IMG/VR virus record: IMGVR_UViG_3300002307_000018
Span: 192,001-256,000 of that record
DNA length: 64,000 nucleotides
Reading direction: 5' to 3' (one strand)
Origin: a virus
Lineage: Duplodnaviria > Caudoviricetes
Under the pieces are notes generated by a model that saw only the letters and a list, made by a program, of their open reading frames with translations, ran no database searches and was not told the DNA's origin. Positions within the stretch are counted from its first letter, which is position 1; each line of letters begins with the position of its first letter. The position numbers and the translations under genes are program-made. Positions 21,682 to 33,710 of this stretch are shown here, in pieces.

Positions 21682-21772
21682 TTGTTATATTGAAATACAC
21701 TATACGCTATACGGGTCTAGGTCACGTGGCACGTTAGACTTTCATTGCTTATAATGTACTTCAATATAACAA
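21682..21772 (-). ncRNA. stalk-closed ncRNA, unit E1
   Basis: TTGTTATATTGAAGTACATT pairs with AGTGTATTTCAATATAACAA. Confidence 0.75.
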
Positions 21773-21774
21773 CT

Positions 21775-21851
21775 TGGTAGGGGCACTGAGACTTAAACTC
21801 AGAACCTATCGGTTAAAAGCCGATTGCTCTAATCAGTTGAGCTATACCCCC
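21775..21851 (-). tRNA. tRNA-Lys(UUU)
   Basis: loop CTTTTAA, CCA. Confidence 0.92.
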
Positions 21852-22012
21852 ATTGGGTCGTAATTGTGCATATCACTTGCACCCTTACGATCTGATACTT
21901 TTGTATTCCTGCGTTCCGTTTTGTACGGTTTACTATGTGAGCCAGCGCAACGTGCGGCGGCTAATCTAGCAAAACGATTACGAGGAACAATGGTTTTACC
22001 CTTTGTCTTCAT
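21842..22012 (-). CDS. small basic protein, 56 aa (not in ORF track)
   Basis: AGGAG SD; MKTKGKTIVPRNRFARLAAARCAGSH; stop inside tRNA-Lys 5' end. Confidence 0.6.
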   Translation of the reverse strand: MKTKGKTIVPRNRFARLAAARCAGSHSKPYKTERRNTKVSDRKGASDMHNYDPMGV

Positions 22013-22016
22013 TTTA

Positions 22017-22151
22017 CTACTCCTTATCTTGGTTAATTTTACGACCGCTTTTGCGTGACTTCACGTCAACGGTAAACTTGATTTTCTTGCCATTGCCAGC
22101 CTGAACAACTCGGCAAGCGTGATAGCAACGCTTGGATCCGTAAGCTTTCAT
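22017..22151 (-). CDS. small basic protein, 44 aa (not in ORF track)
   Basis: AGGAG SD; MKAYGSKRCYHACR...; behind promoter 22176-22204. Confidence 0.6.
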   Translation of the reverse strand: MKAYGSKRCYHACRVVQAGNGKKIKFTVDVKSRKSGRKINQDKE

Positions 22152-22175
22152 TTACATCTCCTATTGTATGTACAT

Positions 22176-22204
22176 ATTATAGCACTATCGTGATTTATCG
22201 TCAA
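22176..22204 (-). promoter_or_regulatory. sigma70-type promoter
   Basis: TTGACG-17-TATAAT. Confidence 0.85.
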
Positions 22205-22238
22205 GCTTTATGTGTTGTATTTTTACAACACTGCTGAA

Positions 22239-22316
22239 TGGAGGCGCCGGTCAGATTCAAACTGACGGTTGTAGAGATTTGCAGTCACTTGCCTTGGGTC
22301 ACTCGGCCACAGCACC
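22239..22316 (-). tRNA. tRNA-Cys(GCA)
   Basis: loop CTGCAAA, CCA. Confidence 0.9.
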
Positions 22317-22318
22317 AT

Positions 22319-22413
22319 TGGTAGTAGATAAAGGATTCGAACCTTTCCGTTGCAGCCCATCTGACCACTCTCCCGAGGATATAAATCTCAGCCGCACACC
22401 AGTGCTATCTACC
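22319..22413 (-). tRNA. atypical tRNA, UAU anticodon (Ile-like), long variable arm
   Basis: GGTAGAT/ATCTACT acceptor, T arm AAAGG-TTCGAAT-CCTTT, loop TTTATAT. Confidence 0.6.
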
Positions 22414-22423
22414 ATTATTGAAT

Positions 22424-22593
22424 TTGTAAGTAGATCCGCTCTCACTATCGGAACCATTTGAGGCTTTAATCAAGGGCGCCTGCCTGTCGAGAGTACGTTA
22501 CTAGGGAGATACTTGTTTGCTACTAGGCTAATTAGGCCCAACTCACCTTTATCTTGCGGAACAGGCTTTCTCTCTTGCTAACACTTACAAAAC
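22424..22593 (-). ncRNA. stem-closed structured RNA
   Basis: TTTGTAAGT/ACTTACAAA ends; internal GCCTGT/ACAGGC helix; no ORF. Confidence 0.55.
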
Positions 22594-22594
22594 T

Positions 22595-22669
22595 TGGAGC
22601 GGGTAACAGGATTCGAACCTGCGACGAACAGCTTGGAAGGCTGACACTCTACCACTGAGTTATACCCGC
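22595..22669 (-). tRNA. tRNA-Gly(UCC)
   Basis: loop CTTCCAA, CCA. Confidence 0.93.
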
Positions 22670-22677
22670 ATAAACTT

Positions 22678-22878
22678 TTACTCTACTGCTTTTGCAGCTT
22701 TGGCTTCTTTACGAGCCAGCTTTTCAGCAGTGATTTCGTTACGACGTACTTTGATTAGTTTCGCCAACTCAGCCAATGCCTTACGAGCCCGTGTACCTGC
22801 GGCACTATTGCCGCTGATAAACTTTGTATCTTCTTCTTGCCATACTTCAATTTGTTCGTTAATCTTTTTGATTGTCAT
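22678..22878 (-). CDS. histone H1-like (Hc1-type) DNA-binding protein
   Basis: GNSAAGTRARKAL motif, K/A-rich tail. Confidence 0.75.
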   Translation of the reverse strand: MTIKKINEQIEVWQEEDTKFISGNSAAGTRARKALAELAKLIKVRRNEITAEKLARKEAKAAKAVE

Positions 22879-22931
22879 GCTAATTCCTTTTAGAGTATCT
22901 ATTTACTGTCGCAGTGACAGTGTAAAATATA

Positions 22932-22960
22932 ATTATACACTAGTGCTGATTTGTTGTCAA
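22932..22960 (-). promoter_or_regulatory. sigma70-type promoter
   Basis: TTGACA-17-TATAAT. Confidence 0.85.
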
Positions 22961-22973
22961 CACATTCGGACAA

Positions 22974-31913: not shown

Positions 31914-32138
31914 CTATCGGCGCATTTTCCAAGTATAGTTTTCACCACTTGGCAATCGACCGTTTTCAACACTATCTACTCCCATCTTACCTACTTGATT
32001 GGGATTTTCTCCTACCATGGCCACGTATAAGCGACCGATAGTGCGTAGATGATTAGCTTGAGTTAGTGCTTCAATCATTTCCAGATATTCTTCACTACAT
32101 GCTTGACCGTCTGGTGCAGTCCAATATACTTTGTACAA
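31914..32138 (-). CDS. hypothetical protein
   Basis: ORF between tRNAs. Confidence 0.65.
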   Translation of the reverse strand: MYKVYWTAPDGQACSEEYLEMIEALTQANHLRTIGRLYVAMVGENPNQVGKMGVDSVENGRLPSGENYTWKMRR

Positions 32139-32157
32139 TATTTTCTCTTTTTCTAGT

Positions 32158-32232
32158 TGGTACCCCCTGATGGAATTGAACCACCATCACTAAGTTCGTA
32201 GCCTAGTATCCTATCCGTTGAACGAAGGGGGC
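32158..32232 (-). tRNA. tRNA-Arg(ACG)
   Basis: loop CTACGAA, CCA. Confidence 0.92.
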
Positions 32233-32241
32233 GTTGTTAAT

Positions 32242-32838
32242 TTAAAATCCAAACATTATTTTTCTAGCATCTTCAAAATAAATGTTCTCTGGGTGCAGCG
32301 GTCTTAGCGTAAGAATGATACGCTCGTTTGCTGACTGTCTGTTATCAAAATCGTGCCATATCTCTGTGTTAAACAAGACAGCCTCATTTGGCTTAGCACA
32401 CATTGTTTTCAATGGACAATGTTTGGAAGTATCGCAGCCAATAAGTCTACGGCCGGTTTGTCCAGGCGGATTATCGTCTGTTTGATAGTCTTTCATATCT
32501 TCATCCGAGAACCAACTAGTGATACACTTATCATCTAGTATTTTTATCGGATAGTTAAAACTAATGTGCGTAGCTATACCATCCTTGTGTACTCTGCCAT
32601 AATGGCCAGATTTACTAACCAACAATGATACACGCTCATGATTTAATTCAAACTGAGTAGACATCGGCGACATATCAAGAATCTCTTGACCCAGTTCTTT
32701 GTCGAATTTGTGTTGTGCAAACTGATATGGGAATTCTATCTTAGATGCAATATCCTGACAGCGATTGATTATTTGTGTCAACATTGGATACGTAAATCTA
32801 ATATAATATGGGCTACAATCTTCTATGATACTATACAT
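32242..32838 (-). CDS. 2OG-Fe(II) oxygenase-like protein (paralog of 40355-40990)
   Basis: HKD ... FNTEIWHD ... R; shared IEDCSPYYIRFTY N-terminus. Confidence 0.7.
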   Translation of the reverse strand: MYSIIEDCSPYYIRFTYPMLTQIINRCQDIASKIEFPYQFAQHKFDKELGQEILDMSPMSTQFELNHERVSLLVSKSGHYGRVHKDGIATHISFNYPIKILDDKCITSWFSDEDMKDYQTDDNPPGQTGRRLIGCDTSKHCPLKTMCAKPNEAVLFNTEIWHDFDNRQSANERIILTLRPLHPENIYFEDARKIMFGF

Positions 32839-32853
32839 ATCTTCTCTAAAAAT

Positions 32854-32930
32854 TGGTCGGAGTACAAGGATTCGAACCTTGGACTTCTTGCTCCCAAAGC
32901 AAGCACTCTACCAGACTGAGCTACACTCCG
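32854..32930 (-). tRNA. tRNA-Pro(UGG)
   Basis: loop TTTGGGA, CCA. Confidence 0.93.
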
Positions 32931-32940
32931 AAATTACTTC

Positions 32941-33177
32941 TTAACTATAGACATCACCGTGAGGTAACTCTGTGCCATTGGCAAGAGCAATAACCGCATC
33001 AACTGACTCCATTACTTCCCAGTTACCATGCGGAGGAATGAACACCATAGTGACTTCTACGATCTCACCAGTGGGTCTTGTTACCGTTGATTTAAATATA
33101 GATACAATTAAATCAGCATTGATTGCAATTGGCTCGTTTAGAAATTCTGGTCGTGCGTTAGTTAATTTAATAAACAT
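32941..33177 (-). CDS. FlbD/SwrD-like small protein
   Basis: MFIKLT...INADLI...VMESVDAV pattern. Confidence 0.5.
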   Translation of the reverse strand: MFIKLTNARPEFLNEPIAINADLIVSIFKSTVTRPTGEIVEVTMVFIPPHGNWEVMESVDAVIALANGTELPHGDVYS

Positions 33178-33195
33178 ATTTTCTCTAAGTTAATT

Positions 33196-33271
33196 TGGTT
33201 GCGACGTGACGGAATCGAACCGCCCCCTGTGGCTTATGAGACCACCGTGCTTACCTACACACTCACCCGCA
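33196..33271 (-). tRNA. tRNA-Met(CAU), initiator-like variant
   Basis: TGCGGG...CGCAACCA ends, loop CTCATAA, irregular acceptor. Confidence 0.72.
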
Positions 33272-33288
33272 ATTGTTACTATACTGAC

Positions 33289-33317
33289 ACTATAACACAC
33301 ACAGTATTTAGTGTCAA
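33289..33317 (-). promoter_or_regulatory. sigma70-type promoter
   Basis: TTGACA-17-TATAGT. Confidence 0.7.
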
Positions 33318-33318
33318 G

Positions 33319-33463
33319 GTATTTGTTGAGCAAGCTGCTATCACTGCCACGCCCAGTTCATTCGGCAGGGGTACGTCATGATGACGAACGTTCGTTCACT
33401 GACGGTTAGGAAAGGTAACCCGTGTGCATTTAACACTGCTCAAACAACTTGCTCAACAAATAC
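33319..33463 (-). ncRNA. stem-closed structured RNA (variant stalk)
   Basis: perfect 16-bp GTATTTGTTGAGCAAG / CTTGCTCAACAAATAC. Confidence 0.65.
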
Positions 33464-33467
33464 ATTA

Positions 33468-33542
33468 TGGTGGAGGGTAAGGGAATCGAACCCTTAACTC
33501 ATGCTTGCAAAGCACATGTGTTCCCGTTAGCACCAACCCCCC
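33468..33542 (-). tRNA. tRNA-Ala(UGC)
   Basis: loop TTTGCAA, CCA. Confidence 0.9.
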
Positions 33543-33552
33543 ATTAAAACTT

Positions 33553-33627
33553 TGGTACCCCCGACAAGAATCGAACTTGTAATAAAGGCTTATCAAGCCT
33601 CCGGTATAACCGTTTACCTACAGGGGT
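33553..33627 (-). tRNA. tRNA-Ile(GAU)
   Basis: loop TTGATAA, CCA. Confidence 0.9.
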
Positions 33628-33634
33628 GTATTTT

Positions 33635-33710
33635 CAATTTATTGAGTACACTACTCGCCCTAATCCCCTAAGCGGGGAGGTACGCTTAGACCAATGTACT
33701 CAATAAATTG
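33635..33710 (-). ncRNA. stalk-closed ncRNA, unit E10, pseudoknot cargo
   Basis: CAATTTATTGAGTACATT / AGTGTACTCAATAAATTG; CTAAGCG/CGCTTAG plus TCCC/GGGA. Confidence 0.75.

What the first reader, a model, noticed from the sequence alone, without database searches (positions are those of the whole stretch)
21682..33710. Family of ten conserved RNA stalks, each carrying a different structured cargo, interleaved with the tRNA array
Seen: ten units (E1 21682-21772, E2 25156-25271, E3 25378-25450, E4 25545-25666, E5 25791-25913, E6 26027-26116, E7 27041-27150, E8 27232-27401, E9 27411-27503, E10 33635-33710). They share a 15-19 bp terminal helix, consensus AUAUUGAAGUACAUU...AGUGUAUUUCAAUAU on the tRNA strand. 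The outer flanks covary (ACC/GGU, UUGUU/AACAA, ACGCA/UGCGU, CAAUU/AAUUG), and E4 has lost the same 2 bp from both arms. Deviations from a perfect inverted repeat are nearly all G-U on the minus strand (A-C on plus), which points to selection on an RNA helix. The enclosed 40-140 nt cargos are unrelated to each other but each folds (hairpins, multibranch, pseudoknot, T arm). Inference: a modular small-RNA cassette system in which a common handle (RNase III-sized duplex or protein-binding stem) releases or stabilises a library of RNAs from the tRNA transcript. These could be decoys against host defences or ligands for a phage protein. I do not recognise this family.
Basis: partly seen in the sequence, partly recalled or inferred. 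Interest (0 to 1): 0.95.

Follow-up and report, generated by a model that had tools for sequence, protein, structure and literature searches.

The report
Stalk-capped RNAs in phage tRNA arrays
A freshwater giant phage, like more than a hundred uncultivated relatives, fills the gaps in its tRNA operons with small RNAs that share one ~19-20 bp closing stem but carry nearly 200 different interiors; this RNA family does not seem to have been described and its function is unknown.

Summary
All ten units exist at the stated coordinates, and 33316-33466 is a probable eleventh. I found 289 distinct units of the same kind in 115 tRNA-array loci of uncultivated phages, many with T4-like genes.

The stalk is a real RNA helix on the tRNA strand:
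- G·U pairs outnumber A·C 552 to 92.
- Many changes are compensatory.
- 90% of stalks are 18-22 bp.
- Arm order is nearly always 5' arm, cargo, 3' arm.

The 5' arm usually starts right after the CCA of the upstream tRNA or tRNA-like RNA. The 3' arm often ends 1-20 nt before the next tRNA. Promoter plus boxA modules precede the arrays, as in rRNA operons.

Cargos fall into about 192 unrelated classes. Some are conserved between phages with covarying internal helices. One class, which includes E7, is tRNA-like.

There is no Rfam match and I found no paper. The best reading is stalk-capped spacer RNAs excised from rrn-like tRNA transcripts by RNase P, CCA-end processing and/or RNase III. Processing and cargo function are inferred, not shown. 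Other first-stage notes of this scan flagged the same stretch.

The parts
21682..21772 (-). Unit E1: stalk plus 43-nt cargo, between tRNA-Lys(UUU) and tRNA-Met
   Evidence: Inverted repeat I1. Minus-strand fold -35.6 against -29.3 kcal/mol on plus. Cargo class shared with loci L052, L212 and L219.
25156..25271 (-). Unit E2
   Evidence: (I4). Helix of 25 bp including flanks. Followed 15 nt later by tRNA-Asp.
25378..25450 (-). Unit E3, a simple long hairpin
   Evidence: (I9). 22-bp helix.
25545..25666 (-). Unit E4, whose stalk is 2 bp shorter in both arms
   Evidence: (I15). Same cargo class and same shortened stalk in L076.
25791..25913 (-). Unit E5
   Evidence: (I8). A contig from a metatranscriptome library covers 25808-25912; this is weak evidence.
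26027..26116 (-). Unit E6
   Evidence: 20-bp helix.
27041..27150 (-). Unit E7: variant stalk and tRNA-like cargo (T arm, D-like loop)
   Evidence: (I11). It aligns with five units of other phages that carry the standard stalk; 17 of 39 pairs are compensatory.
27232..27401 (-). Unit E8: variant stalk and 136-nt multibranch cargo
   Evidence: I2; 23-bp helix.
27411..27503 (-). Unit E9, the first unit after the promoter and boxA. Its flank is CAA/UUG instead of CCA/UGG.
   Evidence: (I5).
33635..33710 (-). Unit E10: variant stalk (UAUUGAGUACA), 7 nt upstream of tRNA-Ile
   Evidence: (I10).
33316..33466 (-). Probable eleventh unit: 21-bp stalk of divergent sequence with a ~103-nt cargo
   Evidence: (I6). 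Membership rests on architecture only.
27509..27521 (-). boxA-like antitermination element CGCUCUUUAACAA, 10-11 nt upstream of E9
   Evidence: In the related loci the same motif occurs 108 times on the tRNA strand and 11 times on the opposite strand.
27548..27576 (-). Consensus sigma-70 promoter (12 of 12 hexamer positions) that would drive boxA, then E9, E8, E7, the tRNAs and E6-E2
   Evidence: pattern match only.
25272..25377 (-). CCA-ending tRNA-like RNA between E3 and E2. Its ACCA is the first four bases of the E2 stalk.
   Evidence: T arm, then 8 nt, then ACCA. Not called as a tRNA by ARAGORN or Rfam.
25451..25544 (-). CCA-ending spacer RNA between E4 and E3
25667..25790 (-). CCA-ending spacer RNA between E5 and E4
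   Evidence: A contig of an RNA library covers 25655-25811.
25914..26026 (-). CCA-ending tRNA-like RNA between E6 and E5
   Evidence: canonical T arm followed by ACCA.
26117..26256 (-). CCA-ending structured RNA upstream of E6

Best explanation
The units belong to a large, apparently undescribed family of RNA cassettes encoded inside the tRNA operons of uncultivated phages, most of them from freshwater and many with T4-like genes.

Anatomy. Each cassette is closed by a helix of about 19-20 bp. The 5' strand begins directly after the 3'-CCA of the upstream tRNA or tRNA-like RNA. The 3' strand ends 1-20 nt before the next tRNA. The interior can be almost anything, from a short loop in plain hairpins of 33-57 nt to more than 200 nt of structured RNA.

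Proposed mechanism. The cassettes are transcribed as part of promoter-boxA (rrn-like, antiterminated) polycistronic stable-RNA transcripts. They are then released as stalk-capped small RNAs by the cuts that mature the neighbouring tRNAs: RNase P on the 3' side and CCA-end maturation on the 5' side. RNase III cleavage within the two-turn stalk may act as well or instead, as with rRNA processing stalks. The stalk insulates the folding of neighbouring RNAs, defines the ends and protects the cargo. The cargos are the diverse functional parts, and one class is tRNA-like.

Status of each step.
- Shown: the RNA-level helix, its constrained length, its register with tRNA ends, the boxA context, cargo diversity, and partial cargo conservation with covariation.
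- Inferred: transcription, the cleavages, stability, and any cargo function.
For: - Helix on the tRNA strand: in 289 distinct units from 115 loci the 19 stalk positions give 4758 Watson-Crick, 552 G·U and 92 A·C pairs. Intermediates at variable positions are G·U, not A·C.
- Compensatory changes: 10 of 25, 9 of 31, 15 of 40 and 17 of 39 predicted pairs.
- Length: 90% of stalks are 18-22 bp. A motif-free stem search peaks at 19 bp on the tRNA strand only.
- Topology: arm order AB occurs 111 times, ABAB 23, ABABAB 13, and BA only 5.
- Register with tRNAs: 108 of 289 units start 0 nt after an ARAGORN tRNA's CCA and 40 end within 2 nt of the next tRNA. 212 of 289 have CCA at -3..-1. CCA is replaced by CAA where boxA rather than an RNA lies upstream.
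- rrn-like context: boxA-like motifs occur 108 times on the tRNA strand and 11 on the other, each preceded by TATAAT. The typical module is promoter, boxA, tRNA, unit.
- Cargo: about 192 classes. Several are shared by 4-13 phages. Cargo is G+C-rich and GNRA-enriched, with covarying internal helices.
[quoted passage not shown] T4 carries non-tRNA stable RNAs in its tRNA cluster.
Against: - No direct RNA evidence. Only a few short contigs from RNA libraries touch the region, and DNA carry-over cannot be excluded.
- The stalk carries pieces resembling the E. coli RNase III proximal box (G-C then three A/U pairs, positions 5 to 2) and distal box (adjacent U-A and U·G, positions 14 and 13). However, they span 13 bp, not the 11 bp described in PMC1540722.
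- 19-20 bp is at the lower edge for RNase III.
- No RNase III gene is found in the phage, so a host enzyme would be needed.
- Cargo folding energies are on average barely better than shuffles.
- In most cargo classes the stalk is more conserved than the cargo. Some cargos may therefore be passengers.
- The strong conservation of the stalk sequence (UAUUGAA) is not explained by a purely structural role.
Confidence: 0.55

Rival explanations
1. Pure processing or insulator hairpins. The stalk is a cleavage or folding-insulation signal for maturing the flanking tRNAs. The interiors are tolerated filler without functions of their own.
For: The shortest family members are plain hairpins of 33-57 nt. 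Of about 192 cargo classes, 147 are singletons. Cargo folding z-scores are weak. The stalk is more conserved than the cargo in 8 of 10 classes.
Against: Filler should be deleted or drift to the A+T-rich background, yet cargos are 49% G+C against 40%. Cargo classes persist across 4-13 phages. They hold invariant single-stranded blocks and covarying helices. GNRA loops are enriched. The same tRNA pairs are often joined by spacers of only 3-10 nt, so a hairpin is not needed for tRNA maturation.
Confidence: 0.2
2. A DNA-level element. The arms would be terminal inverted repeats or recombination sites (MITE-, PeSL- or attC-like) that shuffle tRNA and RNA cassettes, and the RNA hairpin would be a by-product.
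For: Related strains in a lake metagenome differ by clean loss or gain of blocks, with the joint inside the repeated arm (25377 to 25791 with 17 shared letters; 27392 to 27491). Arrays differ in cassette content between phages. TA lies at both outer ends of the core repeat.
Against: Imperfections are G·U on the transcribed strand about six times more often than A·C. The two arms of one unit co-vary away from the consensus while the cargo stays the same. Orientation relative to the tRNAs is constant. Empty sites between the same tRNA pairs show no common target or duplication. No transposase or integrase was among the recurrent neighbouring genes. Recombination between any 17-19 bp repeats would give the observed joints.
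Confidence: 0.1
3. The stalk is a common handle read by a dedicated protein, phage-encoded or host. That protein would load or cut a library of RNA modules acting as decoys, sponges, guides or aptamers.
For: Positions -1 to 7 (A-UAUUGAA) and the U13·G wobble are conserved far more than a helix alone requires. A DUF458 RNase H-like gene lies in or near the arrays in 34 of 115 loci, including this window. Sm-like WYL_2 genes recur near the arrays as well.
Against: The conservation is partly imposed by how the units were found (motif-seeded searches). Units with the same cargo can carry a very different stalk sequence, and other stalk sequences occur in the same arrays. Stenotrophomonas phage DLP6 has the DUF458 gene but no units. 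No binding has been tested.
Confidence: 0.12
4. They are bacterial-type Y RNAs (YrlA-like) that work with a Ro60/Rsr protein.
For: The E7 class has a long terminal stem plus a tRNA-like module. Two members carry GGCGAAG, which fits the GNCGAAN0-1G motif described for YrlA (PMC4201824).
Against: No TROVE/Ro60 gene in this record or in five other records holding the class, although all are incomplete. No Rfam hit beyond the T arm. Only a few of about 192 cargo classes have a T arm.
Confidence: 0.03

Closest known systems
rRNA operon architecture: boxA antitermination plus RNase III processing stalks that bracket 16S and 23S rRNA
   Same: A promoter is followed by a boxA-like element. Long helices formed by sequences 5' and 3' of a structured RNA then follow, interleaved with tRNAs. 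The helix is about two turns long.
   Different: The bracketed RNAs here are 14-240 nt and come in about 192 kinds rather than being rRNAs. The stalk sequence is shared by all units. The stalk base includes the CCA of the upstream tRNA. Cleavage has not been shown.
Phage T4 species 1 and 2 stable RNAs (rnaC, rnaD) in the T4 tRNA cluster
   Same: They are non-tRNA stable RNAs encoded among phage tRNA genes on the same strand. rnaC has a T arm, like the E7 class. Their function is still unknown.
   Different: The T4 RNAs have no long terminal stalk and no sequence similarity to these units. T4 has two such RNAs, not a modular family.
Spacer-derived small RNAs of bacterial tRNA operons (for example the 3' external transcribed spacer of glyW-cysT-leuZ); named from my own knowledge
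   Same: The RNA between or behind tRNAs is released by the tRNA-processing enzymes and has a function of its own.
   Different: Those are single, unrelated spacers without a common closing helix.
Bacterial Y RNAs (YrlA), PMC4201824
   Same: A long stem formed by the two ends plus a tRNA-like domain, seen here in the E7 class only.
   Different: No Ro60 gene was found, there is no Rfam match, and most cargos are not tRNA-like.
PeSL elements of T4-type phages (PMC2839356, PMC4122927)
   Same: Short repeated motifs in T4-type genomes at which recombination shuffles cassettes. Joints inside the arms are seen here too.
   Different: PeSLs are a terminator stem-loop fused to an early promoter, lying between protein genes. 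The units here have no promoter, enclose a variable RNA and show RNA-level selection.
HDV-like theta ribozymes placed directly behind phage tRNAs; named from my own knowledge
   Same: A structured RNA that starts immediately after a phage tRNA and could define its 3' end.
   Different: There is no ribozyme core. The shortest units are perfect hairpins, and no Rfam ribozyme family matches.

Membership tests
Any Rfam 15 family | Covariance-model match at or near the gathering score | tested here: not met
   Only tRNAs reach threshold in the window. At E up to 5-10 the units give nothing beyond a T-arm fragment and chance miRNA or lncRNA hits.
E. coli-type RNase III substrate | Uninterrupted or coaxial helix of about two turns (about 20-22 bp) | tested here: inconclusive
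   90% of stalks are 18-22 bp with a mode of 19-20. This is at the lower edge of what PMC1540722 describes.
E. coli-type RNase III substrate | Proximal box (G-C, A/U, A-U, A/U) and distal box (U-A, U·G) within an 11-bp helix | tested here: inconclusive
   G5-C, U4-A, U3-A and A2-U resemble the proximal box, and U14-A with U13·G resembles the distal box. They span 13 bp rather than 11. The preferences of the unknown host's enzyme are also unknown.
E. coli-type RNase III substrate | Staggered double cut in the helix, dependent on rnc | not testable with these tools
   Needs end mapping or an in vitro assay.
rrn-like antiterminated stable-RNA operon | boxA element downstream of the promoter on the transcribed strand | tested here: met
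   CGCUCUUUAACAA at 27509-27521 lies behind a 12/12 promoter match. There are 108 boxA-like motifs on the tRNA strand of related loci and 11 on the other strand.
Y RNA / YrlA | Ro60 (TROVE) gene in the genome, usually adjacent | tested here: not met
   No TROVE match in this record (74% complete) or in five other carrier records (6-51% complete).
Y RNA / YrlA | tRNA-like domain plus GNCGAAN0-1G motif | tested here: inconclusive
   The T arm and D-like loop are present in the E7 class only. GGCGAAG occurs in 2 of 6 members; the others have GGCGUAG or GGCGCAG.
MITE / transposon with terminal inverted repeats | Copies share internal sequence, target-site duplication, and no strand preference of imperfections | tested here: not met
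   About 192 unrelated interiors. Empty sites show no common target or duplication. G·U outnumbers A·C 552 to 92 on one strand.
PeSL (promoter-early stem-loop) of T4-type phages | Short terminator-like stem-loop fused to a sigma-70-type promoter upstream of an ORF | tested here: not met
   The units contain no promoter and mostly lie between RNA genes. The PeSL description is taken from PMC4122927.
T4 rnaC / rnaD stable RNAs | Sequence or structural likeness to the T4 RNAs | tested here: not met
   The T4 RNAs fold without a long terminal stalk. No DNA similarity was found in the phage collection beyond tRNAs.
CRISPR or TIGR-type guide arrays | Direct repeats separating spacers of near-constant length | tested here: not met
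   The repeats are inverted, pair with each other, and enclose interiors of 14-240 nt.

The most novel reading that the evidence does not exclude
The stalk is a universal adaptor. One conserved two-turn dsRNA handle, fused in register to tRNA ends, lets phages express, excise, stabilise and perhaps load onto one protein an exchangeable library of about 200 RNA modules (decoys, sponges, aptamers, tRNA mimics). Recombination at the handle swaps the modules between phages. This would be an RNA counterpart of gene-cassette systems and a new layer of phage-host conflict.
Probability: 0.12. Interest if true: 0.9.

Novelty: new variant of a known kind. Interest (0 to 1): 0.72.

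Why it matters
Phage tRNA arrays are usually annotated as tRNAs plus 'intergenic' DNA. 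In this window more than 2 kb of such space (25145-27503) holds no convincing ORF. It is filled instead with RNAs under structural selection, and the same design recurs in more than a hundred uncultivated phages.

If the units are made and processed as proposed, three things follow:
- They would be one of the largest phage-specific non-coding RNA families, with a modular logic (one handle, many cargos) not described for bacterial or phage small RNAs.
- They would show that phages borrow the rrn antitermination and processing-stalk design for their own stable RNAs.
- They would offer a natural scaffold for expressing small RNAs with exact ends.

The family may also bear on a 50-year-old open question, namely what the non-tRNA stable RNAs in T4-type tRNA clusters are for.

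Tried and rejected
- Rfam, at gathering and permissive thresholds: no family.
- Cultured-phage DNA similarity, near and distant: only tRNAs match.
- Ro60/TROVE: absent.
- Phage-encoded RNase III: absent.
- Alternative pairing of a 3' arm with the next 5' arm around the tRNA-like spacers: thermodynamically possible. I rejected it as the main form because isolated units are almost always 5' arm then 3' arm (111 AB against 5 BA).
- Transposon reading: no shared target or duplication at empty sites.
- Cargo as tRNA remnants: only 4 of about 192 classes have a strict T arm.
- Cargo as anticodon-loop decoys: 6 loops fit against 0-1 in shuffles, too few to carry the family.
- Cellular origin: two scans of 185,579 species' genomes found only two MAG contigs that are themselves tRNA arrays.
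- RNA-seq: both run searches and the one read-laying run gave only a few short contigs from RNA libraries. No ends or depth profile could be read.
- DUF458 as obligate partner: weakened, because DLP6 has the gene but no units.
- Literature: seven full-text searches found no description.

Full report
**Observation**

The window lies in a 264,637-base IMG/VR virus record, at 192001-256000. It carries 31 tRNA genes, all on the minus strand. On the tRNA strand they read CCAUAUUGAAGUACAUU ... AGUGUAUUUCAAUAUGG, with variant but self-complementary arms in E7, E8 and E10.

Every unit folds 6-14 kcal/mol better on the minus strand, because the imperfections are G·U there and A·C on the plus strand. 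Near-exact copies of the arm occur nowhere else in the virus record. A 21-bp stalk of divergent sequence at 33316-33466 is a probable eleventh unit. Rfam finds only tRNAs.

**The family is widespread**

- A scan of IMG/VR with one 15-base arm gave loci that were mostly dense tRNA arrays.
- In 115 tRNA-array loci I collected 289 distinct units.
- Runs holding this DNA are lake, freshwater and estuary metagenomes.
- Neighbouring genes are T4-like: RNase H/flap nuclease, clamp loader, Rnl1-type RNA ligase, NrdAB and NAMPT.
- Only two contigs in 185,579 cellular genomes carry the unit, and both are tRNA arrays in MAGs.
- Among cultured phages, only Synechococcus phage BUCT-ZZ01 showed related stalk units.

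**The stalk is an RNA helix**

- Over positions -4 to +15 the 289 units give 4758 Watson-Crick, 552 G·U and 92 A·C pairs on the tRNA strand. At the variable positions 8-11 the intermediates between A-U and G-C are G·U, hardly ever A·C. U13·G is present in 80% of units.
- Units that share a cargo can carry differently spelled stalks with both arms changed together: 10 of 25 and 9 of 31 pairs are compensatory.
- 90% of stalks are 18-22 bp.
- A motif-free search for stems of 15 bp or more finds 489 on the tRNA strand, 268 on the other strand and 28 in shuffles, with a sharp peak at 19 bp on the tRNA strand only.
- Arms come in the order 5' arm then 3' arm (111 isolated pairs, plus 23 doublets and 13 triplets) against 5 in the reverse order.

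**Register with tRNA ends**

- In 108 of 289 units the first U of UAUUGAA follows the CCA of an ARAGORN tRNA with no gap. The CCA pairs with the UGG that ends the 3' arm.
- 40 units end within 2 nt of the next tRNA, and the GG of UGG is then often G1G2 of that tRNA.
- 212 units have CCA at -3..-1. Where ARAGORN calls no tRNA upstream, the upstream sequence still ends in a hairpin plus NCCA, sometimes with a T arm.
- Where boxA rather than an RNA lies upstream (E9 here, and units in L012, L076, L219), the flank is CAA/UUG instead. The CCA therefore belongs to the upstream RNA.
- The same tRNA pairs are elsewhere joined by A/U-rich spacers of 3-10 nt. The unit is an optional insert, not a requirement for tRNA maturation.

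**Operon context**

A 12/12 sigma-70 consensus match at 27576-27548 is followed by CGCUCUUUAACAA (boxA-like) at 27521-27509, and then directly by E9, E8 and E7. Across the related loci boxA-like motifs occur 108 times on the tRNA strand and 11 times on the other. Each is preceded by TATAAT, and most often followed by a tRNA about 26 nt later and then a unit. This matches the layout of rRNA operons, where boxA precedes the RNase III stalks.

**Cargo**

- The interiors fall into about 192 sequence classes, of which 147 are singletons. Unit length has a median of 80 nt and ranges from 33 to 266.
- Several classes are shared by 4-13 phages. Window E1 and E4 have partners elsewhere.
- E7 aligns with five units that carry the standard stalk. 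That class has a T arm, a D-like loop and a covarying hairpin.
- A 120-nt class shows 15 of 40 compensatory pairs, including internal helices.
- Cargos are 49% G+C against 40% for the loci, and GNRA loops are enriched.
- Against this, mean folding z-scores are only -0.54, and in 8 of 10 classes the stalk is more conserved than the cargo.
- The shortest units are plain hairpins. The stalk is the constant element, and at least some cargos are under selection of their own.

**Mechanism**

The anatomy fits spacer RNAs cut out of an antiterminated stable-RNA transcript.
- RNase P at the next tRNA would make the 3' end.
- The cut that matures the upstream CCA end would make the 5' end.
- Alternatively, RNase III would cut the two-turn stalk as in rRNA precursors.

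The stalk holds base pairs resembling the E. coli RNase III proximal and distal boxes, but 13 bp apart rather than 11 (PMC1540722). Membership as an RNase III substrate is therefore open. No RNase III gene is in the phage record. None of the cleavages has been observed; a few contigs of RNA libraries touch 25431-25912, but they do not prove transcription.

**DNA-level side**

A lake metagenome holds relatives in which blocks of units are missing, with the joint inside the repeated arm (25377 to 25791 with 17 shared letters, and others). The arms therefore also serve as recombination points that reshuffle cassettes, much as PeSL motifs do in T4-type phages. The strand asymmetry, the covariation and the lack of target duplications argue that this is a consequence of the repeats and not their purpose.

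**Candidate partners**

Three genes recur in or beside the arrays: a metallophosphoesterase (36 of 115 loci), a DUF458 RNase H-like protein (34 of 115; window 9684-10187) and an omega-like protein (17 loci). DUF458 also occurs in tRNA-rich cultured phages. One of these, DLP6, lacks the units, so DUF458 is not an obligate partner.

**Known relatives and novelty**

The closest known things are:
- rRNA processing stalks with boxA;
- the T4 rnaC and rnaD stable RNAs, which lack the stalk;
- spacer-derived sRNAs of tRNA operons;
- YrlA-type Y RNAs, although no Ro60 gene was found.

I found no description of this family in seven full-text searches. I rate it a new variant of a known kind (stalk-bracketed stable RNAs in stable-RNA operons), with a real chance of being more than that. 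Other first-stage notes of this scan flagged the same stretch.

Noticed in passing
window 9684-10187 (-): DUF458 / PF04308 RNase H-like protein (phrog_11311, function unknown). It lies in or next to the tRNA arrays in 34 of 115 loci. It is also present in cultured tRNA-rich phages such as DLP6, BUCT-ZZ01, the KVP40 group, DSS3P8 and Cronobacter S13. It is a candidate tRNA-array-linked ribonuclease.
   Followed up: partly
window 10192-10443 (-): Small ORF with a weak match to the RNA polymerase omega/Rpb6 family (E 5e-5, below the Pfam cut-off), adjacent to the DUF458 gene. Homologs lie near the arrays in 17 loci.
   Followed up: partly
window 17561-18613 (-) and 18972-19580 (-): An Rnl1-type RNA ligase next to a calcineurin-like metallophosphoesterase, a possible RNA end-healing and sealing (tRNA repair) pair. 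The phosphoesterase is the most frequent protein neighbour of the arrays (36 of 115 loci).
   Followed up: partly
window 22322-22414 (-): tRNA-like RNA with an 8-bp acceptor stem, a long extra arm and ACCA. It has only a weak Rfam tRNA-Sec hit (E 0.49) and ARAGORN does not call it. It sits in a 278-nt ORF-free gap between tRNA-Cys and tRNA-Gly.
   Followed up: no
L232 (Vibrio phage nt-1) 4618-4720 and 8254-8356: Reverse topology in a cultured KVP40-like phage. tRNA-Asp and tRNA-His are each enclosed by a 15-bp leader/trailer helix (AAGUGUACUUUGG ... CCAAAGUACAUUU) whose sequence resembles the stalk arms. This may be a related processing stalk placed around tRNAs.
   Followed up: partly
related loci, whole set: The tRNAs directly upstream of units are mostly Lys(UUU), Glu(UUC) and Gln(UUG): 60 of 108. 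These are the three tRNAs with 2-thiouridine at the wobble position, which are frequent targets of anticodon nucleases. The pattern may simply reflect conserved gene order.
   Followed up: no
window 22678-22878 (-): Hc1-type histone H1-like protein gene (Pfam E 8e-14) inside the tRNA array. Two very basic ORFs of 44 and 56 aa without family matches lie nearby, at 22017-22151 and 21842-22012.
   Followed up: no
window 25377/25791, 27392/27491, 27424/27512: Contigs of a lake metagenome join these points, so related strains lack E3-E4 or E9. The joints lie inside the repeated arms.
   Followed up: partly
stalk position 5 across the family: A recurrent subfamily (UAUAAAAACACA / UGUGUUUCUAUA) keeps an A·C opposition at position 5 in 40 units. 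It is the only place where A·C is common, and it could be a protonated A+·C wobble or a recognition feature.
   Followed up: no
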